DNA of 45,990 nucleotides from Blastocatellia bacterium (GCA_031398365.1 JANNND010000325.1:1-45990); one strand, 5' to 3'; positions 11,286 through 45,280 are shown, numbered from the stretch's first letter. Numbers and translations are program-made. Notes: generated by a model not told the origin, from the letters alone.

Positions 11286-11451
11286 TGGGCGGGGGAGAAG
11301 GCTGTGATTGTAATGCGTGAGAGTGCCGCTTTGCCAGCGCATGCGAAAAAATTAGCCCGGTTCAGAGGCTGACTCCAAACCAGGCTGAAAGATGAATTTC
11401 ACCGCGTATGCGATTTCTCCTTACACTCTCCACTGAGAAAAGGATCAAAAC

Positions 11452-19888: not shown

Positions 19889-20218
19889 TTATTGCCGTGC
19901 AAGAAGCCGTTCACGAATGCCATTGGGATCATGGCGAGATTCGTTAATTTTTCTGCTTTCGTCTGCTTTTTCTTGCCGCGCTTTTAAGTAAGAATCAAGT
20001 TCCGCGCGATGGCGTAAGTAATAAGCAATTACCGCATAGACATCAGCCAAATCAACGACAGGGAATCGTTGCACAATTTCTTCAGCCGTTGCACCTTGAT
20101 GGAAAGCAAAGACAATGGTGTCCAACGGCAATCGAGTTCCAGCCACGCGAATGACGCCATGAGCATCAGTGGCGAGAGGAGCTTGTTCGACTGCAATTGT
20201 CAGGTTCATAGCGGTCAT
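19889..20218 (-). CDS. DUF433-domain putative antitoxin (109 aa)
   Basis: ATG 20218 is preceded by GGAGG. The segment GVIRVAGTRLPLDTIVFAFHQGATAEEIVQRFPVVDLADVYAVIAYYLRHRAELDSYL is the classic DUF433 pattern. Confidence 0.7.
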   Translation of the reverse strand: MTAMNLTIAVEQAPLATDAHGVIRVAGTRLPLDTIVFAFHQGATAEEIVQRFPVVDLADVYAVIAYYLRHRAELDSYLKARQEKADESRKINESRHDPNGIRERLLARQ

Positions 20219-20278
20219 CTTAGCCTCCAACAATGACATTTTCTATCATAAAAGATTAAGGACTGAAAATTGGCACGG

Positions 20279-31390: not shown

Positions 31391-31417
31391 ACGTTTTATG
31401 GGATGAATTTTGGTTGC

Positions 31418-31451
31418 AACAAGGTGAGGAGCACTTGCTTCTCACCTTGTT
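31418..31451. terminator. shared hairpin between convergent genes
   Basis: aacaaggtgaggagc-actt-gcttctcaccttgtt: a 15-bp stem with one G-U pair. The flanking U-tracts are weak. Confidence 0.5.
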
Positions 31452-31454
31452 CAT

Positions 31455-32507
31455 TTAGAGCGATGTGAGTAAATCTGCCGCCAAATATGGATTTTCCCAA
31501 AGATCAGTGCCAGTCCATAACTGATAAAACGAAGTGTCTTTGACGAGCGCTGTTAACAGCTTTAATTGGTTTTGCGTATGGTCACGATTGAGCGGAAAAA
31601 ACATGGATTGCCCGATCAAGCGTCGGAGCGCCTCACTTTTGGGCAAAGGCTCTAAATGGCTTTGCTTCGCACCGGTGAGTTGTGGGAATAGCACTTGAGC
31701 GACTCGCGTAAAACTGCCTTCACTAAAGGGTGCTGAATTGAAAAGCGTCAAGCCATCCACACAGGCACGATCATGATAAAAGTATTGCACCTTTACGTTA
31801 TGAAGGACCTCCCATTGTTGTAACAAGGCTGCGGCCAAATGAAAATCACGCCTGAAGGCGTGCAACTCTGCCTGGCCTTGTGCGTTTGCTTGCAACACCA
31901 TTCCGTCATCAGAAAGGGGATGCCAACCGCCGATCCCAAGCGCCGTCGTTAGTGTTGTTTTTCCGGCCCGTTGACCACCGCAGATAAGTATCAGGCGCTG
32001 CGCTGGAGAAAGCACTGCTGCCGTGTGCAAGTGGTAAACACGCTGTCCTCGGAGCGCCAACATCAAGGTCATAAACACATACGTATTTACCATCAGGTGG
32101 GGCCAATCCAGCGCATCCCGGGAAATGATGCCAACAATCCTGCCGGACGCTGGCTCAACCCGAATTACAGCGTTGCCAAAGTGAAAATGGAAATGAAACT
32201 GCTCTCGTCCTCGGCTTACGGTTTTCCAAATCGTAGTAACTTCCTGTTGCCCTACGAATTCAGCTTCAACTGGGATTAATTGCTTGAGGGTGGCGGAAGC
32301 AGTCGCAAATTTCAGGCGCAATTTGATGGTTGGCGCGGATCGTAAGAAAGCTTCTGGCGCGGCTTGCGGGTAGAAGCGAAAATAGCTTTGACAAAGGCTC
32401 AGCAGGTAGGGATTAGGAGTAATAAGGACAACGTTCACTCCACAAATTTCAAAACTCCAAGTTAGCACGGTAAGATAAGTAAAGGCACCGTTAACCGCGT
32501 TCGCCAT
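31455..32507 (-). CDS. HprK-related kinase (HPr kinase C-terminal-like P-loop protein), 350 aa
   Basis: LILICGGQRAGKTTLTTALGIGGWHPLSDDGMVL parallels the HprK catalytic core GxSGxGKSExALEL..RGH.LVADD. Its size and N-terminal domain resemble the kinases found next to PqqD proteins. Confidence 0.75.
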   Translation of the reverse strand: MANAVNGAFTYLTVLTWSFEICGVNVVLITPNPYLLSLCQSYFRFYPQAAPEAFLRSAPTIKLRLKFATASATLKQLIPVEAEFVGQQEVTTIWKTVSRGREQFHFHFHFGNAVIRVEPASGRIVGIISRDALDWPHLMVNTYVFMTLMLALRGQRVYHLHTAAVLSPAQRLILICGGQRAGKTTLTTALGIGGWHPLSDDGMVLQANAQGQAELHAFRRDFHLAAALLQQWEVLHNVKVQYFYHDRACVDGLTLFNSAPFSEGSFTRVAQVLFPQLTGAKQSHLEPLPKSEALRRLIGQSMFFPLNRDHTQNQLKLLTALVKDTSFYQLWTGTDLWENPYLAADLLTSL

Positions 32508-32553
32508 TAACGATGCCTAAAGTTACGAAAGGAATATGTTGTGTAGTAAGGGA

Positions 32554-33000
32554 CTAGCTGCCCCCGCCCAAAGCACCTGCCGCTCCGGTGGAAGCGCCGC
32601 CTGCCAAGTTTAGCTCCATAACTGAGTTAGAACTTTTCACACAGGGAGGTTCATAGGCAGATAATTCATTCGGCGCAGGAAAAGAAAAGCCTGTTCGGCC
32701 AACGACTGGTTCGGTCGTTTCCGAAAGCAAGCGATCTTGCACCAATCCTGCGACAAACTGCCGGACATCCGGCTCAGCCGTTGCGAAGCTGATGGCAAAG
32801 GCGATAGCCAGTTTGTCGGTTAATTGCGCAATCGTTGTTGCGCTGCCAGAGCGTAGATGCTTCCACAGTAAAGTGGCGGCAGCGTTCAAAGAGTAGTAAT
32901 GCAGGTTTTCCAAATCCAGAATGATGGATTCCTGATGGTCAATCAGCTCCGTAAAGGAAGCCTGTTCCTTAGTCACAAATTGTTGCTTGCCGGTTATCAT
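32554..33000 (-). CDS. PqqD-family (RiPP recognition element) protein with a 55-aa C-terminal Gly/Ala/Ser-rich tail ending in Ser
   Basis: The PqqD pattern is ESIILDLENLHYYSLNAAATLLWKHL...TIAQLTDKLAIAFAISFATAEPDVRQFVAGLVQDRLL. The tail is ETTEPVVGRTGFSFPAPNELSAYEPPCVKSSNSVMELNLAGGASTGAAGALGGGS*. SD AAGGAA. Confidence 0.75.
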   Translation of the reverse strand: MITGKQQFVTKEQASFTELIDHQESIILDLENLHYYSLNAAATLLWKHLRSGSATTIAQLTDKLAIAFAISFATAEPDVRQFVAGLVQDRLLSETTEPVVGRTGFSFPAPNELSAYEPPCVKSSNSVMELNLAGGASTGAAGALGGGS

Positions 33001-33019
33001 TTGAATTCCTGATTCCTTA

Positions 33020-34009
33020 TTATTGATTTTGTCCGCGCAGTGTTACCTGACGGCTTGGCGGAGTGCGGCGTTGAGTGTCAGTCGGAGCCGAAATAAAAGC
33101 AGCAGAACCGTCAGGGCCAGGATTATTTGTCAATCGTTGCACCGCATTGGTACCCAGATTGAGCAAATAAAGCTCTGAGTCACCGCTGCGATTTGAAGTG
33201 AAAACAATGCGCGATCCGTCTGGTGAAATTGCTGCCTCGCCATCCCCTGCTTCAGTCAGGACTTGAAAGGCTCCGGTCGCTACCTCGACGAGCGCAACGC
33301 CCGTGAGTCTACTGGGAGTCGCAGTCGTTGTAAAGACTATTCTCTGGGAGTTGGCCGACCAATTAATACCCCCAATTGCCCCACCCTGTTTCGTTAATTG
33401 CCGTAGTTCTTTCGTAGTGGTATTGACCAACCAAACTTCGTTGGCACCGCTGCGATTGGACATAAAGGCAACAAACTTGCCATTTGGCGAAATAGCGGGA
33501 GACACATTGGAATTACTGTCGGCAGCCACTAATTCCTGTCGTTCACGTCCATCAAACTGCATTACCTCAATCTTGCCGTTGGAGGAAAATGCCAGCAGCG
33601 AACCATCTGCCGTTAATGAAGGGTTGGTTTCTTCGAGCGTATTGATGGTCAGCCGATTCACCGCTGCCAGCACCGGGCGCCGTGTGCGCCAAGTCGAACT
33701 GAGCTGGGCGGTAAAAAGTTCATAAGAACTTCCCTCGCGTGCAGCAAAGGCTGCAACACGAGCGCTGGAGGCCGTTGCCGGCGTAATTTTACCGCGCCCT
33801 GTATCCGTCAACTGACTGACCTGCGCGGATTTTAAATCCAGTAAGAAAAGTTCCGTCGTTCCAGTGCGATTGGAAACAAAAATCACATAATCCGAATCGC
33901 TGCTGACCCGATCTTGAGCCATCACGAACGCATTACACAACAGTCCGAGGAGCATTGTAATAACCAATGATTTGAGTGTACTGATAAAATTGCGATTAAA
34001 GAATGTCAT
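33020..34009 (-). CDS. TolB-like periplasmic beta-propeller protein (PD40 repeats)
   Basis: N-terminal signal/anchor. Repeats include ISPNGKFVAFMSNRSGANEVWLVN, ISPDGSRIVFTSNRSGDSELYLLN and FVSNRTGTTELFLLD. SD AGGAGA. Confidence 0.8.
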   Translation of the reverse strand: MTFFNRNFISTLKSLVITMLLGLLCNAFVMAQDRVSSDSDYVIFVSNRTGTTELFLLDLKSAQVSQLTDTGRGKITPATASSARVAAFAAREGSSYELFTAQLSSTWRTRRPVLAAVNRLTINTLEETNPSLTADGSLLAFSSNGKIEVMQFDGRERQELVAADSNSNVSPAISPNGKFVAFMSNRSGANEVWLVNTTTKELRQLTKQGGAIGGINWSANSQRIVFTTTATPSRLTGVALVEVATGAFQVLTEAGDGEAAISPDGSRIVFTSNRSGDSELYLLNLGTNAVQRLTNNPGPDGSAAFISAPTDTQRRTPPSRQVTLRGQNQ

Positions 34010-34043
34010 AAAAACCTGTCTCCTGTTTATGAGTTCAAGAGGA

Positions 34044-34071
34044 GGGCTGGATTCGATTCCGAATCCAGCCC
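34044..34071 (-). other. intercistronic 12-bp stem-loop (GGGCTGGATTCG-loop-CGAATCCAGCCC)
   Basis: A perfect inverted repeat between the giant gene's stop (34089) and the TolB-like start (34009). There is no U-tract on the transcribed sense, so it is probably an mRNA stability or processing hairpin. Confidence 0.55.
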
Positions 34072-34088
34072 TATTTCTCAGATGCTGA

Positions 34089-37000
34089 TTACTTTACGCG
34101 GCGAATGCGATTGTTTTTAGCATCCACAAAGATGACTTCGCCGCTGGAGCTGACCGTGATGCCAACAGTTTGAACCATGTAGTTAATTGAAACTGTTGTA
34201 TCAATATCAATTGGGTCAGTATCTATATCAATGCGAGAACTGGTTGGATTCCCGCCATCTCCGGCAAAACCTCCCATGCTTGCCGTTCCGGCAAAACTGG
34301 TAGCCGTGCCACCAGCAATCGGAAGCTTGAGAATTTGCTGGGTTCCGCTATTCATTACATAAAGATTGTCAGAGGAATCCACCGCAATGTCCCGAGGCCG
34401 ATTGATGGCAATGGAACTGCCAACTGCCGCGAAGGCGCCACTGCCAGCCGCTGTTTCACGCAGCACTTGGCTGCTAGGGCCGGAGACTGCAATTAACAAT
34501 CTTCCTGAATTATCGAAGGCCAGCCCTGTATAGTCACTGGTTGCAGACAAAGTCAGGCTGGAAATAATACCGGTGCTACGCAGGATCTTCCGCACACGTC
34601 GGTTGTTGACATACGATTCAGACAGATAAATGTCTTTGCTTGTTGGATTAACTTCTACATCGGTGGTTCCCACCAGTTTTGCACTGGTCGCAATCCCGCC
34701 ATCCCCAATGCCAGACGGATCGGTGCTACCACCAGCAATCGTCTTGATTTCCCCTGGATTTACGGTAATGGCACCATAGAATGTCACTGCCGAATTGCTT
34801 AGATTCAAGAAGCGTAGTTTGCTTGTTTTTACTCCCATTGCGGTTGGTACGGATTTCCCGAAAGAATCGACAATGTAAAGCCCTTCCGAGGTCCACTTGA
34901 GCCCCTGCAAAGTATAGAAATACGCTAGGCTTGGATCTGTACTTTCATCATTGAGAGGATCAGTGCCATTTTTATTGATGCGGATGATACCATTCGCTGG
35001 CACACTTTGACCGAGGAGCGTTATAGGTGAACTTCCCCGATTAACAAAGCGTAAGGCACTGCCCCCGGAAACATTAGCTTCGGCAATGAATGCATTATTG
35101 TTGCCATCAAGGGCTATCCCTACCGGTGAAGCTAAAATCGCACTCGTTGCCAGACCACCATCATAAGGTTCCGGCAAACCAGAGCCAATGATCGTATTTC
35201 CTGTCCCTGGAGCGATGCTCACATTGGCCAGCGTCAAGGCACCACCACTGATGTTCAGATAGCGAATACGACTGCGACCATTACCAACCTGATCCAACAC
35301 AAATAGTCCATTGCTGTCACTACCCAGATTTAAGAGCGCCAGGCGGAAGTCAAATGTCATACTACTATTGGCCCCTCCATCTCCGCAGACAGAAGAAGAA
35401 TAGTCACATACAATTGCTGAGGTACCGGCAATTGCATTTACAGGGGGTGTATTGATGGTGCCCGTAGTAGTAGAAGCCGTTGCAGCAACAGTATCCGGGT
35501 TGTCTATTCTCACGATTGTATGATCATTACTGTTCGTGATGTAAAGGCTGCCACCCAACAAGGTCAAGCCGGACGGCATTGAATTCCCTGTTGGGACTAA
35601 GACGCCAGCATCAAATGTACCCAATTGAGTAACCAGTTGCATAACCCCTGATTGCACTCGCACAACACGACCGAAGCGGCTATCACTGATGTATACCGTA
35701 TTTCCATCATTACTGACGGTAATTGCCTGCGGCCCAGCCAGTGCGACCGCCGTAGCGCTAGGTGTTGCGCCTGAGGTCGGGTAAGGAAACGCTTGCCAAC
35801 TAAAAGGTCTTGGCGCGGAGGGACCACCGGCAAAAGTGGAAATTGCACCAGCAGGCGTTATCTTCAATATCTTCGAAGAAGTTCCATCTGCAACATATAG
35901 GTCTTTTGAGACAGGATTAACTGCAATCCCTCGCAGGTCCTCGCTCAAAGTGCTGCCTAGTTCGTCATACAAGGTTCCCACATTGCCAACCTGTACGAAT
36001 TTCGTTGCGCTAGCGATTAATTTAATAGGATTGGTATCCATACCAGGGGAAACGTTAATCCAGTTCACCATCTTAACCCCTGAACCAGCATTGGTAAAAA
36101 ACAAAACATTCTTGTCGGGGCTCAAGGCCAAGCCTGTAATTCCCAAAAGATCAATGCCAGCCATTGGGGTGTCATCGGGCGTGAGAATACCGGCCTCTGT
36201 TGGGCGACCAGAGGTAAGATTTTTAATTGAATTTGCTGGAACAGTAATACCAGCGATTTTGAGCGGGGCGTTCGTAGTATTGGCGAAGCGAATAAACCAG
36301 CCGCCTGCTGCCGCTGTCGTCTCAGCAATATACACACCACGTCCCGGATCCACCGCAGTCGCAATGGACTTAATCAGCGGTGCCTGATTGGCTTGGTTAC
36401 CATCGCCGTACAAGCCACCCGCAATTGTCGTGATGGTAGGATCAGAGGTAATAACAGTCTCATTACCGGTTGTATTTGCGGTGAAGGTTGTATTGGTTTT
36501 GGTGACTGAAGTAGTGCTGCGATATTGCAACCCGAATTTTGAACTATTATTGCTTTCTGAGTTGGTAAAGCTAAAGGTGTAATTAATGTTGTCAATAATT
36601 ACCTGTGCATTACCGGAAGGACTGTCGCCGCCATTGCGGACAGAGACAAAATTGAGAATAGAGCTACCGGCTGACGTAGACGAAAAGAACAGTCCGCCGA
36701 AGTTGCCGCCACCAGGAATTTTGTCAAAAACGATTCGTTGGGAAATGCCTGTATCAGCATCGGGAGACTGGCTATATCCGGCATATCCATTGGCCGCAAT
36801 GTTTCCGAATAAGCTCCCGTCCCCTGCTTTCAAATCCATCCCCGCGTCAAGCTGGATGATAGCATTTGGATTGATAGACAACTCTGCACCGGGAGAGCCA
36901 TTGGAATTCCCGACGATTGATGGATTGCCGCTCGCGCCACGAATTTGAATCGGGATGTCGCCTTGTCCAACCAACACACCCGAGCGAGTGAAATCATTAG

Positions 37001-38630
37001 CGGACGCATCAATTTGTACAGCATTGGTTCCGTTATTTCGGATGACGTTAGCAGATGAGAAGTAATAACTTTGATCTGGAACACGCGTATTTGCGTTGCT
37101 GGCATCCAAATCACCCATTCCACCGCCAGTTGAACCAACACCAAGTGCCGCATTTGCGCTCAGCAAAACGGCAACGCCAATATTGTTTTCAATGCGGGAC
37201 CGAGTAAATCCCGTGAAGAAGTCACCATTACCTGTGGCGCGTAAACCATGACCACCGCTGCGTCGCGAGATACTATCCGTAAAGCGCAAGGTTCTGCCCG
37301 AACCACTAATATTGATTTGTGCGCCACCACTGCCGCCACCGAACTCAATTACAGAGTTCTTAAAGGTAAGTTCACTGGTCGAGGCTGAGGTTGCATCAAT
37401 TCCGCCCCAGATAGTTGCGCCAGGCGAACGCGTAATAACAATCTGCGCAGGTGAAGTTGCTGGTACACCAGGAATTCCGCCATTTGCAGTCAAGCTGGCT
37501 CCGACCTGCAAAGTCACGCCATCATCCACATAAATCACAGTGCCGGGCAAAATTGCGCCGGAGATTGTCGCATTGGCGTTGATCCGATACGGGCCGATGT
37601 CGCTGAAGGAAGGGCTGGTTCCGGTATGGGCGCCATCAGGCACACCTGTCACGGTCAATCTGCCCTCCAAAGTGCTTGATCCAAGGCCGCCTGGGGTACC
37701 GCCGGAATTTGTGACGCGCACGCTGTAAATGCCCGGGACAGTGCTAACAGGTACGGTTGCGGTCAATTGTGAAGCAGAGATAACTGATGATGCCAGCGTT
37801 GCCACAACTGCACCGCTCGAATTCAGCAGCGTCACGGTTGGGGAGCTGAAACCTTGGCCATTGATTACAATGGTTCGGTCAACATCGTTCTGAATAGCAG
37901 CAGGTTCGACGCTTTCGGTGGCCACGCCGATATCGGCTACCAGCGTGTAGCGAAAATAGAAGCTTTGCAGTGAAGTGCTGGGAAAGGAGAATGACCAGAC
38001 TCTGGTTTGCGAAGAACTCGGATCAATATCGCCGTAGTCGCGCGAGACACCAAGCTTACCGTTGAGCGCCACTTGGCCGTCATTGAAGTAAGCGCTCGCG
38101 GTACTGGCTACACCACCACGAGAGTCTAGAAAGTCTGTAAAGATCAGACGTGTATTATAGAATTTCAGTGATCCGGTATTGTTAATCCGCATTTCCCCGG
38201 AAACAGTGTTCGAAGGTGCAGGCGGTTGACAAGGAACCGTCGCGCTCGGATTTGCACAAGAGCGGACAAAGGTACGAGTATGCGATCCGTCAGGCAAAGG
38301 TGTCGTGGCATCACTGCGTCCGAAGGCCTTGAAGGTTGCGTGGAGGTTGCCACTATTGGAATTCAATAGCGTCACCTTTTGTGTTTTGGCATCAAAAGTA
38401 CCCTCAAACACGCCGACGATCTTTTGCCTATTCGCGGTTCCAGCCGCTGGCACTCGGCCTACCTCACGATTTGCCGAGGCAGTTGAAGCAGCGAGGGCGG
38501 CGCGCGTGACGGCTACTTTTCGTAGCCCCGCAGCACCAACCATCACCAATAGGGTTGAGACCAATATAATAAGTGTTGTCGAGCGAAATGAATAACGCCC
38601 CAACCTAAACAAAAGTCCGCGACTAGACAT
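34089..38630 (-). CDS. giant exported protein (1513 aa): unknown N-terminal domain, IPT/TIG domain, right-handed beta-helix-like region, and multiple NHL-type beta-propeller repeats
   Basis: SD AAGGAG and an N-terminal anchor (TTLIILVSTLLVMVGAAG). The IPT-like segment is RTIVINGQGFSSPTVTLLNSSGAVVATL...TATVP..VPGIYSVRVTNSGG. A Gly/Asn/Ser-rich beta-helix-like middle follows. NHL-like units include GIAVNPVSKDLYVADGTSSKILKI, ITVSNDGNTVYISDSRFGRVVRV, GLTLLGGSLYITNSNDHTIVRI, DIAVDSSDNLYVMNSGTQQILKL and ITVSSSGEVIFVDAKNNRIRRV. Confidence 0.85.
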   Translation of the reverse strand: MSSRGLLFRLGRYSFRSTTLIILVSTLLVMVGAAGLRKVAVTRAALAASTASANREVGRVPAAGTANRQKIVGVFEGTFDAKTQKVTLLNSNSGNLHATFKAFGRSDATTPLPDGSHTRTFVRSCANPSATVPCQPPAPSNTVSGEMRINNTGSLKFYNTRLIFTDFLDSRGGVASTASAYFNDGQVALNGKLGVSRDYGDIDPSSSQTRVWSFSFPSTSLQSFYFRYTLVADIGVATESVEPAAIQNDVDRTIVINGQGFSSPTVTLLNSSGAVVATLASSVISASQLTATVPVSTVPGIYSVRVTNSGGTPGGLGSSTLEGRLTVTGVPDGAHTGTSPSFSDIGPYRINANATISGAILPGTVIYVDDGVTLQVGASLTANGGIPGVPATSPAQIVITRSPGATIWGGIDATSASTSELTFKNSVIEFGGGSGGAQINISGSGRTLRFTDSISRRSGGHGLRATGNGDFFTGFTRSRIENNIGVAVLLSANAALGVGSTGGGMGDLDASNANTRVPDQSYYFSSANVIRNNGTNAVQIDASANDFTRSGVLVGQGDIPIQIRGASGNPSIVGNSNGSPGAELSINPNAIIQLDAGMDLKAGDGSLFGNIAANGYAGYSQSPDADTGISQRIVFDKIPGGGNFGGLFFSSTSAGSSILNFVSVRNGGDSPSGNAQVIIDNINYTFSFTNSESNNSSKFGLQYRSTTSVTKTNTTFTANTTGNETVITSDPTITTIAGGLYGDGNQANQAPLIKSIATAVDPGRGVYIAETTAAAGGWFIRFANTTNAPLKIAGITVPANSIKNLTSGRPTEAGILTPDDTPMAGIDLLGITGLALSPDKNVLFFTNAGSGVKMVNWINVSPGMDTNPIKLIASATKFVQVGNVGTLYDELGSTLSEDLRGIAVNPVSKDLYVADGTSSKILKITPAGAISTFAGGPSAPRPFSWQAFPYPTSGATPSATAVALAGPQAITVSNDGNTVYISDSRFGRVVRVQSGVMQLVTQLGTFDAGVLVPTGNSMPSGLTLLGGSLYITNSNDHTIVRIDNPDTVAATASTTTGTINTPPVNAIAGTSAIVCDYSSSVCGDGGANSSMTFDFRLALLNLGSDSNGLFVLDQVGNGRSRIRYLNISGGALTLANVSIAPGTGNTIIGSGLPEPYDGGLATSAILASPVGIALDGNNNAFIAEANVSGGSALRFVNRGSSPITLLGQSVPANGIIRINKNGTDPLNDESTDPSLAYFYTLQGLKWTSEGLYIVDSFGKSVPTAMGVKTSKLRFLNLSNSAVTFYGAITVNPGEIKTIAGGSTDPSGIGDGGIATSAKLVGTTDVEVNPTSKDIYLSESYVNNRRVRKILRSTGIISSLTLSATSDYTGLAFDNSGRLLIAVSGPSSQVLRETAAGSGAFAAVGSSIAINRPRDIAVDSSDNLYVMNSGTQQILKLPIAGGTATSFAGTASMGGFAGDGGNPTSSRIDIDTDPIDIDTTVSINYMVQTVGITVSSSGEVIFVDAKNNRIRRVK

Positions 38631-38971
38631 AGTAAAAACTCCTTTTTCCTGGTTGGGCGGGTACGTATACCCGCAGGCTATACAAGTAATATTGCTAATA
38701 GAGCGCCATGTTTATGATTCAGGAGAAATTTTCTCCACGCCGATTTCCCGCTGCATAATCAGCTCATTGTGGCGTTCGGGCCTTCGCGCTCGGGGAGCGG
38801 AAGAAACTTGAATTTATTTGCGGAAGATGCAGAGCCTAAGGACACGGGGTGAAGGATTGGCTGCACCAGATTATTTTAAGATAGCGAGAAACGATAAACG
38901 GGACCAGCGATAGTTCTTGCCAGTGAGGAACTTGTGAGGGATTAAGTTACTTATTATCGTTACCCGAAGGC

Positions 38972-39001
38972 ATTCTAGGTGAAGCTATCCGGCTACGTCA
39001 A
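38972..39001 (-). promoter_or_regulatory. candidate sigma70-type promoter for the giant-protein operon (TTGACG-18-TAGAAT)
   Basis: Minus sense: TTGACGtagccggatagcttcaccTAGAAT. It would give a leader of about 335 nt. Confidence 0.4.
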
Positions 39002-39371: not shown

Positions 39372-40997
39372 ATGGATAGCGTTTTTAGACCCAGTCACTC
39401 CGACAAACCAAACAGTAATCGTAACTGGTTGCGTGTTGGAATTTTTAGTCTGGCTGTTTTATGCGTCGGAGCTATTGTTGGCTCAGCGCTCACCGTCAAG
39501 GGATGGTCTCCCTTTAAAGGTTCTGGCGACAATGCGCCGCTGGTACTACCCGAAAGTCAGCCACGTATCAATCAATCTTTGACATTGAATACGGGCTTTT
39601 CTGCAGTTGCTAAATCAGTAACTCCTGCGGTCGTGGTCATTCGCACCAAAAGCCGCGTTAACCCGCAACAATCTCCCTTTTTCAATCCGTTCGAAAATTT
39701 AATTCCAGAAGATGATGAAGAGGGATTTTCACAACCACGCCGTCGCGTACCACAACCTGCTCCCAATGCCCCTAAAGGCAAAGATAAGAAAGGGCAACTG
39801 GTTCCGACTGGCACAGGTTCCGGTGTTATTGTGACGCCTGATGGTTATATCTTGACCAACAACCATGTGGTTGATGGGGCTGACAAGGTTGAAGTTGAAC
39901 TTGCTGACAAACGAGTTTTGCAAGCGAAAGTGATTGGTACTGATGCGCCCAGTGATATTGCGGTGATCAAACTTGATGTAACGGGGCTGCCTACTGTTCC
40001 GCTTGGTGATTCCAGTCAAGCCGAAGTTGGTGACATTGTCCTTGCTGTCGGGAACCCACTCGGTATTGGGCAAACTGTCACGATGGGCATCATCAGTGCT
40101 AAAGGTCGCAGTACGACGAGCGGCGGAAATCGCAATTATGAAGATTTTCTGCAAACGGATGCGCCGATCAATCGCGGCAATTCCGGTGGCGCATTAGTCA
40201 ACTTGAAAGGCGAATTGGTCGGGATTCCATCGCAAATTCTTTCGCCCAGCGGTGGCAGCATCGGGATTGGCTTTGCTATTCCTACCAATATGGCGCGCAA
40301 AGTTATGGAGCAACTGGTAGCCACTGGCAAGGTCAAGCGCGGATTGCTGGGCGTCAGCATCCAGCCTGTTTCCGCCAGTCCTGACGTTGCCGAACAACTT
40401 GGTTACAAAGGTAATCAGGGCGTGATTGTCCAGTCTGTCGAACCAGGACTTTCCGCCGAAAAAGCCGGGGTCAAACCAGGTGACATTATTCTCGAATTTG
40501 AGGGCAAGAGGGTGGAGGACTCCAACCAATTGCGCAACATGGTTTCGCAAATCGCTCCCGGTACTGCCGTCAAGTTTAAAGTCTGGCGCGATGGCGCAGA
40601 GCGGGAAATGTCTGCGAGTCTGGTTGAAGCAGGTGACCTCAAAACAGTAGCCAGCAATACACCCGGAGAAGATGACAAGGGAGATTCCGGTCTTGGCGAA
40701 GGCGTCTTATCTGGTGTCAAAGTTGACAACATCACGTCTGATCTTTCGCAACGACTCAACATGACTTCTGGTTTAAAAGGAGTCATCGTGACGGGAGTTG
40801 ATGAGGATAGTCCAGCCGCAGGTACGTTGCGCCGCGGCGACGTGATTCAATCCGTGAATCGTCAACCAGTCAATAATGTTGCGGAATTTACTGCGGTCGT
40901 GAAGCGAACGGGCAATAAAAAAGTATTGTTGTATATCCAACAACAGCGCGGCGGCACGTGGCAAGGTGGTTATCTAACTGTTGCTCCGCAAGAATAA
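39372..40997 (+). CDS. htrA: HtrA/DegP/DegQ-family periplasmic serine endoprotease with two PDZ domains
   Basis: N-terminal anchor. Catalytic triad contexts TNNHVV, DIAVIKL and GNSGGALVN. Two PDZ-like segments (GV.V..V.PG.SAEKAGVKPGDIIL; GV.VTGVDEDSPAA..LRRGDVIQSVN). SD GGAGAA. Confidence 0.95.
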   Translation: MDSVFRPSHSDKPNSNRNWLRVGIFSLAVLCVGAIVGSALTVKGWSPFKGSGDNAPLVLPESQPRINQSLTLNTGFSAVAKSVTPAVVVIRTKSRVNPQQSPFFNPFENLIPEDDEEGFSQPRRRVPQPAPNAPKGKDKKGQLVPTGTGSGVIVTPDGYILTNNHVVDGADKVEVELADKRVLQAKVIGTDAPSDIAVIKLDVTGLPTVPLGDSSQAEVGDIVLAVGNPLGIGQTVTMGIISAKGRSTTSGGNRNYEDFLQTDAPINRGNSGGALVNLKGELVGIPSQILSPSGGSIGIGFAIPTNMARKVMEQLVATGKVKRGLLGVSIQPVSASPDVAEQLGYKGNQGVIVQSVEPGLSAEKAGVKPGDIILEFEGKRVEDSNQLRNMVSQIAPGTAVKFKVWRDGAEREMSASLVEAGDLKTVASNTPGEDDKGDSGLGEGVLSGVKVDNITSDLSQRLNMTSGLKGVIVTGVDEDSPAAGTLRRGDVIQSVNRQPVNNVAEFTAVVKRTGNKKVLLYIQQQRGGTWQGGYLTVAPQE

Positions 40998-42075: not shown

Positions 42076-42117
42076 AAAGGCCCTGCATTCAATTTGAATG
42101 TGGGGCCTTTCAGTTTT
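42076..42117 (+). terminator. candidate attenuator/terminator hairpin immediately before the pheA ATG
   Basis: aaaggccctgcattcaa / ttgaatgtggggccttt (42076-42092 / 42094-42110; about 15 bp including two G-U pairs), followed by cagtttt and ATG 42118. Confidence 0.5.
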
Positions 42118-42978
42118 ATGAGTCATTCTATCCCCCCAACATGTGTCGCATTTCAAGGTGAACTAGGCGCATTCAGCACGGACGCCGCCCACAAATTGCT
42201 GGGTGACCGGATTCAACTTATCCCGTGCGAAACGTTCGACTTGATGTTCGCCGCCGTCGAAGCCAGGGACGCAGATTATTGTCTGGCACCATTGGAAAAT
42301 TCGCTTTTTGGTTCGGTCTATCAAAACTATGATTTGTTACTCAAGCATGATTTTCAAATTGTGGGCGAGACGACACTGCGAATTGTTCACAGCTTGATTG
42401 TTGCCCCGGAAACAAAATTGGAACACGTGCGACTGGTCTATTCGCACCCGGTCGCGCTCGGTCAATGCCGCAATTTCCTGCACGCAAATCCAGGCATGAA
42501 ACCAATTGTGGCCTATGACACAGCAGGCAGCGTTAAGCTCATTATGGAAAGCCGCGAAGCCGGAGCAGCCGCCATCGCTAGTGCTTCCGCAGCAGAAGTT
42601 TACGGCGCAGAAGTGATCGTTGTTGGCATTGAGGACGATCCTCAAAACTTCACCCGGTTCTCGTTGCTGGCACGCGCAGAAGAAGCTGCGGCGCACCCGC
42701 CGCCCGAAATTGAAAGCGCCAAAACTTCCATCGTCTTCGCGCTCGAAAACAAAACTGGCTCACTGTATCGCGCGATGGCAGTGTTTGCACTGCGTGATTT
42801 AGACCTTACGAAAATCGAATCACGTCCCCTGATCGGACGTCCCTGGGAATACAGTTTTTACTTGGATTTTATTGGTCATACGGAGGAAAAGCGTGTGCAA
42901 AATGCGCTTGCTCATCTGGCCGAATTTGCCGCGAATGTCAAAGTTCTGGGCTGTTATAAAGCCGCTACCAATTCGTAG
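42118..42978 (+). CDS. pheA: prephenate dehydratase (PDT + ACT domains, monofunctional)
   Basis: VAFQGELGAFS..., the TKIESRP motif, and a C-terminal ACT region. I prefer ATG 42118 because the TTG at 42094 lies inside the hairpin. Confidence 0.9.
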   Translation: MSHSIPPTCVAFQGELGAFSTDAAHKLLGDRIQLIPCETFDLMFAAVEARDADYCLAPLENSLFGSVYQNYDLLLKHDFQIVGETTLRIVHSLIVAPETKLEHVRLVYSHPVALGQCRNFLHANPGMKPIVAYDTAGSVKLIMESREAGAAAIASASAAEVYGAEVIVVGIEDDPQNFTRFSLLARAEEAAAHPPPEIESAKTSIVFALENKTGSLYRAMAVFALRDLDLTKIESRPLIGRPWEYSFYLDFIGHTEEKRVQNALAHLAEFAANVKVLGCYKAATNS

Positions 42979-42979
42979 T

Positions 42980-43029
42980 ACAGACTATTTGTCTGTCGCT
43001 GCCTGAACCCTTACAGACCAATGTCTGTA
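42980..43029 (+). promoter_or_regulatory. two similar short palindromes, ACAGAC-tattt-GTCTGT and TACAGAC-caat-GTCTGTA, between pheA and aroF
   Basis: 42980-42996 and 43012-43029, read directly. Confidence 0.6.
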
Positions 43030-43053
43030 CTACATTTTAAGGAGAGAAACATC

Positions 43054-44079
43054 ATGATCGTTGCAATGATTGCAGGTGCTTCCGAAGCACAAATTGAACA
43101 TATCTGTGAGCGCATCCGCCAATTTGGTTATACGCCACACGTGATTCGCGGTGAAGAACGAACCGTAGTCGCTGCTATTGGTAAGGGCGATAAGAAAGAG
43201 CATATCGAATCGCTCAAATCTGCGGATGGCGTCGAAGATGCGTTTCCTATTTTGCAGCCCTTCAAATTGGTCAGCACTGAAGTCAAAAAAGAAAGATCAA
43301 TCATCAAGGTCGGCGACATCTCTATCGGCGATGGCGGTTTGGTCGTGATGGCTGGCCCGTGTTCGGTCGAAACCCGCGAACAGTTACTGTCCACCGCTGA
43401 ATGCGTCGCCAAAGCAGGCGCACAGATTCTGCCTGGCGGCGCGTACAAACCGCGCACCTCGCCGTATGAATTTCAGGGCTTGGCAGAAGAGGGATTGAAG
43501 TTGTTAGCCGAGGCGCGCGAAAAAACCGGCCTTAAAGTTGTCACCGAAATTTTGAATGCGGAAGATGTGGATTTGGTTGAAGAATACGCAGACATTCTGC
43601 AAGTTGGCGCGCGCAACATGCAGAACTTCGAACTGCTGAAAAAGCTCGGCAAAGTCAGTAAACCCGTGATGCTCAAACGTGGCTTGTCTGCCACGATCAA
43701 AGAATTTCTCCTGTCAGCAGAGTATATCGTTTCCAATGGCAATCCGAACGTGATGTTGTGCGAACGTGGCATCCGCACCTTTGAAACCGCCCTGCGCAAC
43801 ACCTTGGATTTAGGTGTCGTACCGTTGCTCAATGAATTGACTCACTTACCTGTTGTCATTGATCCAAGTCACGGAACCGGCAAGCGCAGCCTTGTCCCGC
43901 CTGTTGCCAGAGCTGCGGTGGCCATTGGTGCTGATGCGATTATGACTGAGGTGCATCCGTTTCCTGAACAAGCCTGGTCAGATGGCCCACAATCGCTTCG
44001 CTTCGAAGAGTTCGATCAAATGATGGCCGACATTCAACCTTACGTGAAGCTACGTCAGCGCTCCTCTGCCGCCGCATAA
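43054..44079 (+). CDS. aroF: 3-deoxy-7-phosphoheptulonate (DAHP) synthase, type I-beta, with an N-terminal ferredoxin-like/ACT-like regulatory domain
   Basis: SD AAGGAGAG before ATG 43054. The N-terminal [43 protein letters not shown] resembles the Thermotoga-type regulatory domain. [16 protein letters not shown] and DPSHGTG. Confidence 0.9.
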
Positions 44080-44090
44080 TTCAACTCAGC

Positions 44091-44129
44091 AAGTGATTCA
44101 CAGAGGACACGCACTCATGTGAATCACTT
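44091..44129 (+). other. 12-bp perfect inverted repeat after aroF (AAGTGATTCACA...TGTGAATCACTT) carrying the 12-mer CACAGAGGACAC
   Basis: Read directly. There is no U-tract, so its terminator function is uncertain. Confidence 0.5.
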
Positions 44130-44233
44130 TCATCGCTCGCTTGCTCTCGCCCAATCACAGTGGGATAATCCTGCTTACTTTAAAGCGCAATCAAACTTTT
44201 AAGCTTTTCGGATTATTTCACTGGTGTCCCGTT

Positions 44234-44482
44234 ATGCCCGCAAAGAAGAACGCAAAAATTATTTGCAACAACGAAAAAGAATTTTGGATCACGCAAAAAG
44301 AATTCTGGAAGATGGTGCGCGAGGGTGTCGTCAATCAAACAGGTGATTATCCACTCACTGGTCGCTTTCGCGGGCGCGACGATCAATTGCTCGTACTTAT
44401 CAACCACGTTGTCTTAAATAAAGCGACGCCGATTCACACAGAAGAAGTTCTGCAATCTGTCCGCTTCAAAAAACGCAAGTGA
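44234..44482 (+). CDS. small basic hypothetical protein (82 aa)
   Basis: MPAKKNAKIICNNEKEFWITQKEFWKMVREGVV...RFKKRK. No SD and no recognisable family. The longer TTG-initiated version in the track looks non-protein-like. Confidence 0.3.
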   Translation: MPAKKNAKIICNNEKEFWITQKEFWKMVREGVVNQTGDYPLTGRFRGRDDQLLVLINHVVLNKATPIHTEEVLQSVRFKKRK

Positions 44483-44701
44483 GATTCGTCCAATATAAAG
44501 TTGAATTATTTTGCATTTTCTTTGGGAACTTTTGCTAGATACCCGCGTTTGTGTACGCACGTGTGAGGACGATCTAAACATTGATTGAAAGTGGTAAAGT
44601 TTAGAGGAAGGACACCGGCAAGTTTGTCCTGATGCTAGTAGCGTAACTACTTTTTCTCAAGATCGGATCTGAAATAACGTTACATAGAGTGGCTATTCGC
44701 C

Positions 44702-44756
44702 AACGGCAGGCATTCGGAAACTGTGAGGGGTTCCGGGTACCTGCCGTTTTATGTTT
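44702..44756 (+). terminator. plus-strand terminator-like hairpin (AACGGCAGG ... CCTGCCGTT + TTTATGTTT)
   Basis: An outer 9-bp stem encloses an inner CGGAA/TTCCG stem, with a U-rich tail. Confidence 0.45.
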
Positions 44757-44825
44757 GGCATATCTGCCTTACGATTTCCGGGTAAATTTCTGTCAGGATT
44801 TTGGAAGCAGCCCTGCATTCGCCCT

Positions 44826-44977
44826 TTACATAGAGTGCGCCGGGTGCTGCCGGCTACTGGCGCCGGAGGGAACGCCGGTGATGCAAATCATTGGCGTTCC
44901 GTTCGTAGTTTCTTCATCATCCTCCTTTGACTCCTTTCGTGCCGAAACTGTTTTGAGCTTCGGCATTTCTTTTTTCT
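44826..44977 (+). ncRNA. candidate structured small RNA of about 130-150 nt (family unknown)
   Basis: A GC-rich nested set of helices: GCGCC...GGCGC, then GGAACGCC-GG-TGAT-GCAA-ATCA-TT-GGCGTTCC with a GNRA loop. A single-stranded CCUCCUUU stretch follows, then a strong terminator. No plus-strand gene lies downstream. Confidence 0.3.
44940..44977 (+). terminator. plus-strand rho-independent terminator
   Basis: TGCCGAA-(12 nt)-TTCGGCA followed by TTTCTTTTTTCT. On the minus sense the U-tract is missing. Confidence 0.7.
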
Positions 44978-44986
44978 GGAATCAGT

Positions 44987-45262
44987 TCACCCACCAGCAA
45001 TCGCCGGGACGATTGAAATTTCTGACTGCTCATTGACAGGCGTTTGTAGCTGGTTCAAGAAGCGAATATCTTCGCCGTCCACATAAACATTGATGAACCG
45101 GCGCAAATCACCATTTTCTTCACAAAGGCGCGCTTTGATGCCTGGATATTGCGTTTCGAGTTGCTGAAACACTTCGCTAATCGTCGAACATTGCACACTG
45201 ACCAGTTCGACGCCATCGGTAAATTTGCGCAGCGGAGTTGGGATAATTACTGTTTGTGCCAT
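44987..45262 (-). CDS. MoaD/ThiS-family ubiquitin-like sulfur carrier protein (CysO-like), C-terminal GG
   Basis: [17 protein letters not shown]......[15 protein letters not shown]...[12 protein letters not shown] has the same pattern as M. tuberculosis CysO (…HRFVNIYVNDEDVRF…VTILPAVAGG). Confidence 0.85.
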
Positions 45263-45280
45263 TGGGGTCTCCTCGAAAAT

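What the first reader, a model, noticed from the sequence alone, without database searches (positions are those of the whole stretch)
31455..38630. Orphan PqqD(RRE) + HprK-like kinase pair in one operon with a TolB-like propeller and a 1513-aa NHL/beta-helix protein, with no lasso or other RiPP maturation enzymes
Four minus-strand genes are packed with gaps of 79, 19 and 46 nt. They are bounded by a 741-nt non-coding region upstream and a hairpin downstream. In order they encode a giant IPT/beta-helix/NHL exported protein, a PD40 propeller, a PqqD-family protein and an HprK-related kinase. The kinase keeps the catalytic-core signature (CGGQRAGKTTL...HPLSDDGMVL).

Established knowledge: PqqD-like domains are the leader-binding RiPP recognition elements. 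In paeninodin-type lasso peptide clusters an HprK-homologous kinase phosphorylates the C-terminal Ser of the precursor.

Here I see no asparagine-synthetase-like lasso cyclase, no transglutaminase-like leader protease, no radical-SAM enzyme and no separate short precursor ORF. The RRE/kinase pair therefore seems wired to something else. Candidates are its own tail (see the next finding) or the co-transcribed envelope proteins. I do not know of a described function for this four-gene combination.
Basis: partly seen in the sequence, partly recalled or inferred. Interest (0 to 1): 0.75.

Follow-up and report, generated by a model that had tools for sequence, protein, structure and literature searches.

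The report
Peptide-binding protein carrying its own substrate
A four-gene unit found only in one group of soil Acidobacteria pairs two cell-envelope propeller proteins with a kinase-like enzyme and a small peptide-recognition protein that carries its own docking motif and a serine/threonine-rich tail, which looks like a stripped-down relative of the recently described linear phosphorylated peptide pathways.

Summary
Four minus-strand genes sit at the stated coordinates with gaps of 79, 19 and 46 nt, a 741-nt upstream spacer and a strong downstream hairpin. The PqqD assignment passes Pfam. Its domain is a lasso-B1-type RRE.

The "kinase" fails every curated cut-off. It is still a distant HprK-related P-loop protein with a PEPCK/HprK-type fold, and its His, P-loop and DD core aligns with the proven peptide kinase BsfK.

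The cassette is a strict unit. Searching from the kinase gave 25 of 25 genome loci with enough upstream DNA in the same gene order. Searching from the PD40 gene gave 23 metagenome loci, and all 21 with readable DNA downstream of PD40 carry the PqqD gene next. All properly labelled loci are Acidobacteriota/Blastocatellia. No cyclase, B2 protease or radical-SAM gene was found among the Pfam-annotated genes within ±10 kb.

The PqqD protein is RRE + variable linker + conserved YxxPx[L/V] leader-like motif + Gly/Ser/Ala/Thr tail. Remote kinase relatives lie next to free-standing [Y/F]xxPxL precursors, radical-SAM enzymes, short PqqD proteins and B2-like proteases.

The closest known system is LPP (Popov 2026). 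This cassette differs from it: the precursor is fused to the RRE, there is no peptidase, NTP-transferase or exporter, and it is locked to two envelope propeller proteins. I call it a new variant of a known kind. Phosphorylation of the tail is inferred, not shown.

The parts
34089..38630 (-). Gene 1: a 1513-aa envelope protein. It has an N-terminal signal-anchor helix (aa 18-36, 38523-38579), a borderline IPT/TIG domain (aa 240-314, 37689-37913), a Gly/Ser/Asn-rich middle region of unverified fold, and two NHL propeller regions (about 35475-36425 and 34239-34661).
   Evidence: It is conserved as the first cassette gene in every genome locus whose contig reaches it and in the metagenome loci.
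33020..34009 (-). Gene 2: a 329-aa secreted PD40 beta-propeller with a signal peptide ending in ...VMA|QD. It is not TolB.
   Evidence: Its orthologue group (at least 46% identity) is found only inside this cassette. Generic PD40 proteins (at most 33% identity) have none of the partner genes.
32554..33000 (-). Gene 3: a 148-aa PqqD-family protein made of an RRE, a linker, a leader-like motif and a tail.
   Evidence: PF05402 at 51 bits. The AF2 model's best PDB matches are the lasso B1 proteins TbiB1 and TfuB1. The profile hits only lasso and LPP RREs in the PDB. hhalign against BsfB1 gives 96.4% probability.
32719..32961 (-). RRE (winged-helix) domain, aa 14-94, including beta3 with LHYYSLN (32884-32904).
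   Evidence: Mean top-residue frequency is 0.73.
32671..32718 (-). Variable linker, about aa 95-110.
   Evidence: Mean top-residue frequency is 0.36, against 0.73 for the RRE and 0.68 for the leader-like segment. pLDDT is low here.
32605..32670 (-). Leader-like segment, aa 111-132 (NELSAYEPPCVKSSNSVMELNL). The YEPPCV motif is at 32638-32655. Y116 and P119 are invariant.
   Evidence: It is the only [YF]xxPx[LIV]...[SAG]G match in all six frames of the window. YxxPxL at -17 to -12 is the lasso and LPP RRE-binding motif (PMC10368454, PMC13381572).
32557..32604 (-). Core-like C-terminal tail, aa 133-148 (AGGASTGAAGALGGGS). It is uncharged and rich in Gly, Ser, Ala and Thr, with a conserved Ser/Thr cluster and, in this clade, a C-terminal Ser.
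   Evidence: Composition is G 24%, S 21%, A 21%, T 14%. No locus has K/R and 2 of 29 have D/E in the last 18 aa.
31455..32507 (-). Gene 4: a 350-aa HprK-related (ScmC-like) P-loop kinase-like protein. Its motifs are His (YHLHTAAV, 32013-32036), P-loop (GGQRAGKTT, 31953-31979) and DD (LSDDG, 31902-31916).
31415..31453 (-). Hairpin just after the kinase stop codon, facing the convergent fasciclin gene. It marks the likely 3' end of the operon.
   Evidence: dG -21.5 kcal/mol, z = -5.6, no U-tract.
38631..39001 (-). Putative promoter (TTGACG-N18-TAGAAT, 38972-39001) and a roughly 335-nt 5' leader. The leader has conserved blocks and a conserved long-range stem with arms at 38953-38966 and 38885-38898.
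   Evidence: It is conserved in six clade-A loci only, and covariation is weak.

Best explanation
**What it is.** The cassette is a reduced, domesticated relative of the RRE-guided phosphopeptide pathways: phosphorylated lasso peptides and LPPs.

**Gene 3.** It encodes a lasso-B1-type RRE. About 20 variable residues tether it to what would normally be a separate precursor peptide. That part is a YxxPx[L/V] leader-like docking motif followed by an uncharged Gly/Ser/Ala/Thr core with a conserved Ser/Thr cluster.

**Proposed mechanism (inferred).**
1. The RRE binds this motif, either in cis or on a neighbouring molecule.
2. The complex presents the tail to the HprK-related P-loop kinase of gene 4.
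3. The kinase phosphorylates Ser/Thr just after the leader-like segment and/or the C-terminal Ser. This is what BsfK, LppK and PadeK do to their precursors.
4. No leader peptidase, cyclase, radical-SAM enzyme, nucleotidyltransferase or exporter belongs to the unit. The product therefore most likely stays a cytoplasmic phosphoprotein rather than becoming a secreted natural product.

**Link to the envelope proteins (speculative).** The unit is strictly co-inherited and probably co-transcribed with the membrane-anchored NHL giant and the secreted PD40 propeller. This suggests it serves those two proteins, for example as a phospho-switch or adaptor for their production, export or activity.

**Shown versus inferred.** Shown: domain identities, architecture, conservation and synteny. 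Inferred: RRE-tail binding and phosphorylation. Speculative: the link to the envelope proteins.
For: **Gene 3 is a lasso-B1-type RRE.**
- PF05402 scores 51 bits.
- The best structural matches are TbiB1 and TfuB1, with TM up to 0.86.
- The family profile hits only TbiB1, LppB (9X8Z), PbaB1 (9X90) and TfuB1 in the PDB. PDB identities are taken from PMC13381572.
- hhalign against BsfB1 gives 96.4% probability, E = 1.1e-9.

**The tail looks like a leader plus core.**
- Y116 and P119 are invariant across 41 homologues.
- Mean top-residue frequency is 0.73 for the RRE, 0.36 for the linker, 0.68 for the leader-like segment and 0.60 for the tail.
- The register Y(-17), P(-14), [L/V](-12) matches lasso leaders (PMC10368454). 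The [Y/W]xxPx[L/V/I/F/A] motif is the one bound by lasso and LPP RREs (PMC13381572).
- The motif occurs once in six frames of the window.
- In the AF2 model pLDDT rises to 71 over residues 111-120, and residues 121-124 form a strand.

**Gene 4 is an HprK-related P-loop protein.**
- All 30 homologues hit HprK_rel_A.
- The model is confident (pLDDT 90.7) and has a PEPCK-type fold.
- The His, P-loop and DD core aligns with BsfK, E = 3.6e-5.
- Bridging relatives hit true HPr(Ser) kinase models.

**Published precedents.**
- BsfB1 accelerates BsfK phosphorylation of core Ser3.
- LppK polyphosphorylates core Ser3.
- PadeK phosphorylates the C-terminal Ser of the linear precursor.

**Remote kinase relatives sit in precursor-containing clusters.**
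- They lie directly downstream of free-standing [Y/F]xxPxL precursors, together with short PqqD proteins (94-95 aa), radical-SAM enzymes and Transglut_core3 proteases.
- One relative is a natural kinase::PqqD fusion.

**The four genes are one unit.**
- Every locus with enough DNA keeps the same gene order.
- Median intergenic gaps are 86, 40 and 54 nt.
- The position equivalent to Thr(-2), which leader peptidases need, is relaxed (T/N/S/V/A). That fits loss of cleavage.
Against: - No experiment or structure shows RRE-tail binding or phosphorylation.
- The AF2 model of the PqqD protein is only moderate (pLDDT 64.7). I could not inspect contacts, so cis-docking is unproven.
- A profile of the tail does not retrieve the free-standing precursors of the remote clusters (scores below 2 bits). 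It matches BsfA only marginally (E about 0.02). The tail-as-precursor idea therefore rests on a short motif, its register, its conservation and its gene position.
- The kinase fails all curated family cut-offs and could have another NTP-dependent activity.
- In BsfA, alanine replacement of Y(-17), P(-14) and L(-12) did not abolish phosphorylation. The motif may not be what drives the kinase.
- Nothing explains mechanistically why two Sec-exported proteins are locked to a cytoplasmic module.
Confidence: 0.5

Rival explanations
1. It is a true secreted RiPP pathway. The tail is phosphorylated, cut off by an unlinked protease and exported. The PD40 and NHL propellers then bind, process or sense the peptide outside the cytoplasm.
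For: - LPP and lasso systems release a phosphorylated core.
- Beta-propellers commonly bind peptides.
- One remote cluster carries a PD40/Tricorn-like propeller inside the RiPP operon.
- A DegP/HtrA gene lies divergently upstream in 17 of 22 loci.
Against: - No peptidase or exporter is conserved with the cassette.
- DegP is periplasmic.
- The -2 position needed by leader peptidases is relaxed.
- Fusing the precursor to a folded 95-aa domain is an odd design for an exported peptide.
- The propeller similarity to the remote cluster is only at repeat level (E = 2e-5).
Confidence: 0.17
2. The RRE/kinase pair acts on the co-encoded envelope proteins, for example on the conserved short cytoplasmic N-terminus of the NHL giant before or during export. 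The tail would be an autoinhibitory pseudo-substrate.
For: - The four genes are strictly co-inherited.
- The N-terminal cytoplasmic segment of the giant protein is conserved within clades (MAGREY.../MSSRGLL...) and contains Ser/Thr.
Against: - No Y..P.[LVI] motif occurs in the NHL, PD40 or kinase proteins.
- Both envelope proteins are Sec-type exported.
- The tail's own conserved Ser/Thr cluster sits where the known kinases act.
Confidence: 0.12
3. The P-loop protein is not a protein kinase. It could be an ATP-dependent scaffold or chaperone, or another transferase or phosphorylase acting with the RRE protein.
For: - It fails Pfam Hpr_kinase_C and all curated NCBIfam cut-offs.
- The top structural hits are PEPCK, not HprK.
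- Its ScmC-type relatives in radical-SAM clusters are uncharacterised. No papers were found.
Against: - The His, P-loop and DD motifs are invariant and align with BsfK.
- Bridging relatives hit HPr(Ser) kinase models.
Confidence: 0.12
4. It is an ordinary lasso cluster split by rearrangement, with the cyclase and B2 protease elsewhere in the genome.
For: - The RRE is of lasso-B1 type, and the leader register is lasso-like.
- Split lasso operons exist. One is cited in the reference list of PMC13381572.
Against: - The tails lack the Asp/Glu acceptor needed for the macrolactam: 2 of 29 have any D/E in the last 18 aa.
- Annotated flanking genes within ±10 kb of about 25 genome loci (the window, L001, L003, L004 and a sample of the recurrent or large genes elsewhere) include no cyclase or B2, although the flanks themselves differ.
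- The precursor is fused to the RRE.
Confidence: 0.03

Closest known systems
Linear polyphosphorylated peptides (LPP) of Bacillota (Popov et al. 2026, PMC13381572)
   Same: - Both are cyclase-less systems built on a lasso-type discrete RRE plus an HprK-like kinase.
- Both have a YxxPx[V/L] leader motif.
- A Ser lies a few residues after the leader. LppK polyphosphorylates Ser3 in LPP.
- The window's RRE profile hits LppB (PDB 9X8Z) at E = 6.9e-5.
- The biological role of LPP is also unknown.
   Different: - Here there is no SpI-like leader peptidase, no NTP-transferase and no MsbA-like exporter.
- The precursor is fused to the C-terminus of the RRE.
- The kinase belongs to a different, ScmC-like branch.
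- The host is Acidobacteriota (Blastocatellia).
- The pair is locked to an NHL giant and a PD40 propeller, rather than embedded in capsule loci.
Phosphorylated lasso peptide pathways (paeninodin PadeK; Bradymonas BsfA/BsfB1/BsfK, PMC10368454; PMC8498205)
   Same: - B1-type RRE: hhalign to BsfB1 gives 96.4% probability.
- The HprK-homologue kinase core aligns with BsfK.
- YxxPxL sits at -17 to -12.
- The RRE helps the kinase.
- The targets are core Ser3 or the C-terminal Ser, and the window's tail ends in Ser.
   Different: - There is no macrolactam cyclase, no B2 protease and no ABC exporter.
- The core has no Asp/Glu acceptor.
- The precursor is not a separate gene.
ScmC-like kinase / radical-SAM / PqqD / Transglut_core3 clusters (Haft's 'SynChlorMet'-type cassettes; uncharacterised; loci L034-L039)
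   Same: - They hold the nearest non-orthologous relatives of the kinase: 24% identity over the full length, E = 6e-27.
- The peptide with the [Y/F]xxPxL motif lies directly upstream of the kinase gene.
- A PqqD RRE is present.
   Different: - Those clusters have one or two radical-SAM enzymes and a B2-like protease.
- They often have a sulfotransferase, NTP_transf_5 or an acetyltransferase.
- Their precursor is free-standing and their PqqD is short (94-95 aa).
- The window has none of these enzymes.
Engineered leader-enzyme fusions such as 'ConFusion' lanthipeptide synthetases (from memory, not checked here)
   Same: A recognition sequence is tethered covalently to the protein that binds it.
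   Different: Those are laboratory constructs that fuse a leader to an enzyme. Here a natural gene fuses the RRE to a leader-like motif plus core.

Membership tests
PqqD / RiPP recognition element (PF05402) | Pfam score above the gathering threshold | tested here: met
   51.1 bits against 23.4, aa 24-92.
PqqD / RiPP recognition element (PF05402) | Three-strand, three-helix winged-helix fold resembling solved RREs | tested here: met
   [quoted passage not shown] Foldseek finds TbiB1 5V1V (TM 0.86) and TfuB1 6JX3. The profile hits only lasso and LPP RREs. hhalign to BsfB1 gives 96.4%.
PqqD / RiPP recognition element (PF05402) | Binds a leader peptide | not testable with these tools
   There are only indirect signs: the invariant Y..P motif in the tail, and a pLDDT bump plus a strand at aa 121-124.
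Lasso peptide biosynthetic cluster | Asn-synthetase-like macrolactam cyclase (C) | tested here: not met
   None among the 27 Pfam-scanned large ORFs of the window (six ORFs at 42094-45973 not scanned). None among the annotated genes of L001-L004 or the recurrent and large flanking genes of the genome loci that were scanned.
Lasso peptide biosynthetic cluster | Transglutaminase-like leader peptidase (B2) | tested here: not met
   Same searches as for the cyclase. Transglut_core3 appears only in the remote clusters L034, L035 and L037.
Lasso peptide biosynthetic cluster | Precursor with a YxxPxL leader and a core with Asp/Glu at position 7-9 | tested here: not met
   The leader-like motif is present but fused to the RRE. 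The core is uncharged, with D/E in 2 of 29 tails.
Linear polyphosphorylated peptides (LPP) | Discrete RRE plus HprK-like kinase, without a cyclase | tested here: met
   However, the RRE is not discrete from the precursor.
Linear polyphosphorylated peptides (LPP) | Archaeal-type SpI-like leader peptidase (the family's defining marker) | tested here: not met
   No signal-peptidase-like gene is among the Pfam-scanned ORFs of the window or conserved in the flanks.
Linear polyphosphorylated peptides (LPP) | NTP-transferase and MsbA-like exporter | tested here: not met
   Both are absent. A LolD/MacB-type ABC pair lies downstream only in the window's own clade and is not conserved with the cassette.
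Linear polyphosphorylated peptides (LPP) | Kinase-dependent (poly)phosphorylation of a core Ser | not testable with these tools
   A conserved Ser/Thr cluster lies just after the leader-like segment. No biochemical data exist.
HPr kinase/phosphorylase superfamily | Pfam Hpr_kinase_C or a curated NCBIfam model above its cut-off | tested here: not met
   No Pfam hit. TIGR04352 scores 30.5 bits against 200, and ScmC 18.5 against 125.
HPr kinase/phosphorylase superfamily | Conserved His, Walker-A P-loop and DD motif in a PEPCK-like nucleotide-binding fold | tested here: met
   The invariant H, GxxxxGK[ST]T and DD are present. The fold matches PEPCK. The core aligns with BsfK at E = 3.6e-5. All 30 members hit HprK_rel_A, and bridging relatives hit TIGR00679.
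TolB (Tol-Pal system) | Equivalog model above its cut-off, and the TolB N-terminal domain | tested here: not met
   TIGR02800 scores 121.9 bits against 343, and only propeller repeats match. The protein is 329 aa including its signal peptide.

The most novel reading that the evidence does not exclude
A RiPP recognition-and-tailoring module (B1-type RRE, leader, core and HprK-like kinase) has been captured and fused into a single self-recognising phosphoprotein. This protein no longer makes a natural product. Instead it works as a cytoplasmic phospho-switch dedicated to a pair of envelope beta-propeller proteins in Blastocatellia. It would be a natural leader-in-cis design and an example of RiPP machinery repurposed for cell-envelope biology.
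Probability: 0.3. Interest if true: 0.8.

Novelty: new variant of a known kind. Interest (0 to 1): 0.62.

Why it matters
**For RiPP biology.** RREs are treated as markers of peptide natural-product pathways. If this reading is right, an RRE is naturally fused to its own recognition motif and substrate and is kept with only a kinase. That would show that RRE-guided modification can be reduced to a two-protein phospho-module and possibly re-used for regulation. It would also give a compact natural system for studying how an RRE hands a peptide to an HprK-like kinase.

**For the LPP and phosphorylated lasso field.** It extends the just-described cyclase-less phosphopeptide logic beyond Bacillota.

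**For Acidobacteria.** It defines a lineage-specific, strictly co-inherited envelope cassette of unknown role in an abundant but poorly studied soil group.

**For genome mining.** It flags a class of RRE hits that probably do not mark a secreted product.

Tried and rejected
- **Kinase profile against PDB sequences.** Only noise came back, with E at or above 0.5. I relied on fold and on hhalign with BsfK instead.
- **Tail profile against PDB sequences, and tail peptides against NCBIfam.** Nothing meaningful was found.
- **Tail HMM against all 1268 small reading frames of the remote-cluster loci.** It did not pick out their precursors. Forced scores were below 2 bits. I therefore do not claim sequence homology between the tail and those precursors, only a shared [Y/F]xxPx[L/V/I] motif and the same gene position.
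- **Beta-helix protein of L035 against the NHL giant.** No similarity. The L034 propeller against PD40 shows only repeat-level similarity. I dropped the idea that propeller or beta-helix partners are ancestral.
- **Rfam on the whole window.** No family was found.
- **PADLOC.** No defence-system membership. There was only a weak NHL-repeat hit.
- **Metagenome scan with the divergent kinase alignment A4.** The third protein search returned only 11 remote relatives.
- **Distant hits L032 and L033.** These are P-loop-only matches. L033 is an HprK-like gene with NTP_transf_5 and is unrelated to the cassette.
- **Literature.** Several searches timed out. Later searches found no paper on 'SynChlorMet', 'HprK-related kinase', or RRE + radical SAM + HPr kinase. 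A keyword search found no report of a natural RRE-precursor fusion.
- **Contacts in the AF2 model.** I could not inspect them, so cis-docking stays untested.

Full report
**1. The observation**

- NHL giant, 34089-38630, 1513 aa.
- PD40 protein, 33020-34009, 329 aa.
- PqqD protein, 32554-33000, 148 aa.
- Kinase-like protein, 31455-32507, 350 aa.

The gaps are 79, 19 and 46 nt. A 741-nt spacer separates the first gene from a divergent Do/HtrA protease gene at 39372-40997. Right after the kinase stop codon there is a strong hairpin at 31415-31453 (dG -21.5 kcal/mol, z = -5.6). It has no U-tract and faces a convergent fasciclin gene.

Pfam and NCBIfam scans of the 27 large ORFs between 172 and 41882 show ordinary chromosomal genes: FtsK, RF, TrpRS, ScpAB, a LolD/MacB-type ABC system, SOD and others. 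None is an Asn-synthetase-like cyclase, a transglutaminase-like protease or a radical-SAM enzyme. Six ORFs at the right-hand end (42094-45973) were not scanned.

**2. Domain assignments**

*PqqD.*
- It is solid: PF05402 scores 51.1 bits against a cut-off of 23.4.
- Its best PDB matches are the lasso B1 proteins TbiB1 (5V1V/5V1U, TM up to 0.86) and TfuB1 (6JX3).
- At sequence level the family profile hits only four PDB sequences: TbiB1 (E = 1.7e-5), 9X8Z_B (6.9e-5), 9X90_B and TfuB1. According to PMC13381572, 9X8Z is LppB and 9X90 is PbaB1.
- hhalign against the experimentally studied BsfB1 gives 96.4% probability, E = 1.1e-9. The BsfB1 sequence came from PMC10368454.

*The kinase.*
- It is weaker by curated standards. 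Pfam finds nothing, and TIGR04352 HprK_rel_A scores only 30.5 bits against 200.
- The case is nevertheless good. All 30 aligned homologues hit HprK_rel_A (best E = 4e-13) and 15 hit HprK_rel_B.
- The AF2 model is confident (pLDDT 90.7). Its top 50 PDB neighbours are all PEP carboxykinases. From memory, that is the superfold to which the HprK C-terminal domain belongs.
- The invariant H160/H161, GxxxxGK[TS]T and DD motifs align with the same motifs of the proven precursor kinase BsfK (hhalign E = 3.6e-5).
- Intermediate relatives also hit true HPr(Ser) kinase models.

*The envelope proteins.*
- The PD40 protein has a signal peptide and propeller repeats only. It is not TolB: TIGR02800 scores 122 bits against 343.
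- The giant protein has a signal-anchor helix, a borderline TIG domain (20.7 bits against 20.9) and two NHL regions. Its 'beta-helix' middle has no Pfam support.

**3. The cassette is a strict unit**

The kinase family is small. It has 33 clusters among 5.8 billion proteins and about 19 representatives at E < 1e-58 in an exhaustive HMM search.

- *Search from the kinase.* A scan of 185,579 species genomes found 26 orthologous loci. All are in Acidobacteriota/Blastocatellia MAGs, and three of these carry labels that look wrong. Every locus with enough upstream DNA keeps the order NHL, PD40, PqqD, kinase. That is 25 loci, with kinase identity from 74% down to 32%.
- *Search from the PD40 protein in metagenomes.* This found 23 orthologues at 46% identity or more. 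All 21 whose contig continues past PD40 have the PqqD gene next, and the kinase and NHL genes are present wherever the contig allows. The 33 generic PD40 hits (at most 33% identity) have none of the partners.
- *Flanks.* They differ between clades: fasciclin/Vut_1 in one, BacA/ProRS in another, SHMT/PMT_2 in a third. None of the annotated flanking genes is a cyclase, a B2 protease or a radical-SAM enzyme.
- *Gaps.* Median intergenic gaps are 86, 40 and 54 nt.

**4. What the PqqD protein really is**

Aligned orthologues show four segments. The figures are mean top-residue frequencies:
- A conserved RRE, 0.73.
- A variable linker of about 20 residues, 0.36.
- A conserved segment, 0.68.
- A moderately conserved tail, 0.60.

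The conserved segment reads LPAYEPPQLKLSNSLTQVTL|SGSSTIATAAIGG in most loci, and ELSAYEPPCVKSSNSVMELNL|AGGASTGAAGALGGGS in the window. Y116 and P119 are invariant. The residue two positions after P119 is always L, V or I.

This is the YxxPxL motif that lasso leaders carry at positions -17 to -12 (PMC10368454). It is also the [Y/W]xxPx[L/V/I/F/A] motif that lasso and LPP RREs bind (PMC13381572).

In that register the tail starts with [S/A]-G and carries a conserved Ser/Thr cluster at about +3 to +6. BsfK and LppK both phosphorylate core Ser3. PadeK phosphorylates the C-terminal Ser, and the window's tail ends in Ser.

The last 16 residues are G 24%, S 21%, A 21% and T 14%. In the last 18 residues no locus has K/R, and D/E occurs in only 2 of 29. 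A lasso macrolactam is therefore impossible.

The motif occurs once in six frames of the window. The -2 position, which leader peptidases read, is relaxed (T/N/S/V/A). That fits retained RRE binding with lost cleavage.

In the AF2 model, pLDDT rises to 71 over residues 111-120 and a short strand forms at 121-124. This is compatible with docking, but I could not inspect contacts.

**5. Where it came from**

Beyond the orthologues, the exhaustive search finds about 3,700 representatives of a wider, unnamed HprK-related family. The few whose context I could fetch lie in RiPP-like clusters:
- A small ORF with one or two [Y/F]xxPxL motifs comes first. Examples are ...KKDYTKPVLTKNEPLTDITFASPP... and ...PFVPPKLNFVTPQLTKQG...
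- The kinase-like gene follows. Its precomputed Pfam hits are 'ScmC' and a weak Hpr_kinase_C.
- Then come one or two radical-SAM enzymes, a short PqqD (94-95 aa) and a Transglut_core3 protease.
- A sulfotransferase, NTP_transf_5 or an acetyltransferase is often present.

One relative is a natural kinase::PqqD fusion. This is a Rosetta-stone hint that these two proteins work together.

In the window the leader-like tail sits 46 nt upstream of the kinase gene. Free precursors occupy the same position in those clusters.

The shared feature is only the short motif. A tail profile does not retrieve those precursors, and it aligns with BsfA in the right register only marginally (E about 0.02).

**6. 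Mechanism**

My best reading (confidence about 0.5) has four steps:
1. The RRE binds the tethered YxxPx[L/V] segment.
2. It presents the tail to the kinase.
3. The kinase phosphorylates the Ser/Thr cluster and/or the C-terminal Ser.
4. With no peptidase or exporter in the unit, the product stays a cytoplasmic phosphoprotein.

Its obligate linkage to a membrane-anchored NHL giant and a secreted PD40 propeller suggests a role in their production, export or function. That last step is speculation.

The rivals, set out in the Rival explanations section, are:
- A true secreted phosphopeptide that uses unlinked processing.
- Action on the envelope proteins, with the tail as a pseudo-substrate.
- A P-loop protein that is not a kinase.
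- A split lasso cluster, which is essentially excluded.

**7. Comparison with what is known, and novelty**

An RRE plus an HprK-like kinase without a cyclase is no longer unknown. Popov et al. (2026) defined linear polyphosphorylated peptides in Bacillota. [quoted passage not shown]

The Blastocatellia cassette shares the RRE, kinase and YxxP logic. It fails three LPP membership features: the peptidase, the NTP-transferase and the exporter. It also differs in fusing the precursor to the RRE and in being locked to two envelope propellers. A keyword search found no description of a natural RRE-precursor fusion or of this four-gene set.

I rate it a new variant of a known kind, with interest 0.62.

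Noticed in passing
window 38631-39001 (minus strand): A sigma-70-like promoter (TTGACG-N17/18-TAGAAT) lies about 370 nt upstream of the NHL start codon. It is conserved across six clade-A loci. The roughly 335-nt 5' leader has conserved blocks (GGTAACGATAA, CCCTCAC, CCTCAC, TTTATCGTT, GCATCTTCC) and a conserved long-range stem (arms 38953-38966 and 38885-38898) around an inner hairpin. There is no Rfam match, covariation is weak, and it was not detected by word matching in the more distant clade.
   Followed up: partly
window 39372-40997 (+): A Do/HtrA (DegP-like) periplasmic protease gene lies divergently upstream of the cassette in 17 of 22 loci that have enough upstream DNA. The shared intergenic region has further conserved blocks on the DegP side. 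This could be lineage synteny or a functional link to the giant exported protein.
   Followed up: partly
loci L034 (107-7376), L035 (2541-6659), L037 (291-4385), L039 (760-4804): These loci carry an apparently uncharacterised RiPP-like cluster type. The order is a precursor with one or two [Y/F]xxPxL motifs, a ScmC-like HprK-related protein, one or two radical-SAM enzymes, a short PqqD and a Transglut_core3 protease. A sulfotransferase, NTP_transf_5 or an acetyltransferase may follow. No lasso cyclase appears on these short contigs. No paper was found for 'SynChlorMet' or 'HprK-related kinase'.
   Followed up: partly
locus L040 641-1804 (protein P0309): A natural fusion of a ScmC-like kinase domain with a PqqD domain (387 aa), followed by an NTP_transf_5 gene.
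   Followed up: no
loci L007, L013, L029: These MAG records are labelled 'uncultured Heliobacteriaceae' or 'Heliomicrobium', yet they carry the full Blastocatellia-type cassette at 38-62% kinase identity. The taxonomic labels of these assemblies look wrong.
   Followed up: no
window 19369-19725 and 19889-20239 (minus strand): An adjacent DUF5615 and DUF433 gene pair sits between housekeeping genes. This arrangement is commonly annotated as a toxin-antitoxin pair.
   Followed up: no
window 3736-7689 and 7863-11342 (minus strand): Two more giant proteins are present. One is a 1317-aa protein with seven LGFP repeats and a 3-keto-disaccharide-hydrolase-like domain. The other is a 1159-aa TPR-CHAT protein. 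Next to them are a sigma-70 region-4-like gene and a 310-aa ORF without Pfam hits.
   Followed up: no
locus L033 9680-11685 (Acidobacteria bacterium Mor1): A distant HprK-like gene (weak PF07475 hit) is directly followed by an NTP_transf_5 nucleotidyltransferase. No recognisable PqqD, precursor or cyclase was among the neighbours I scanned.
   Followed up: partly
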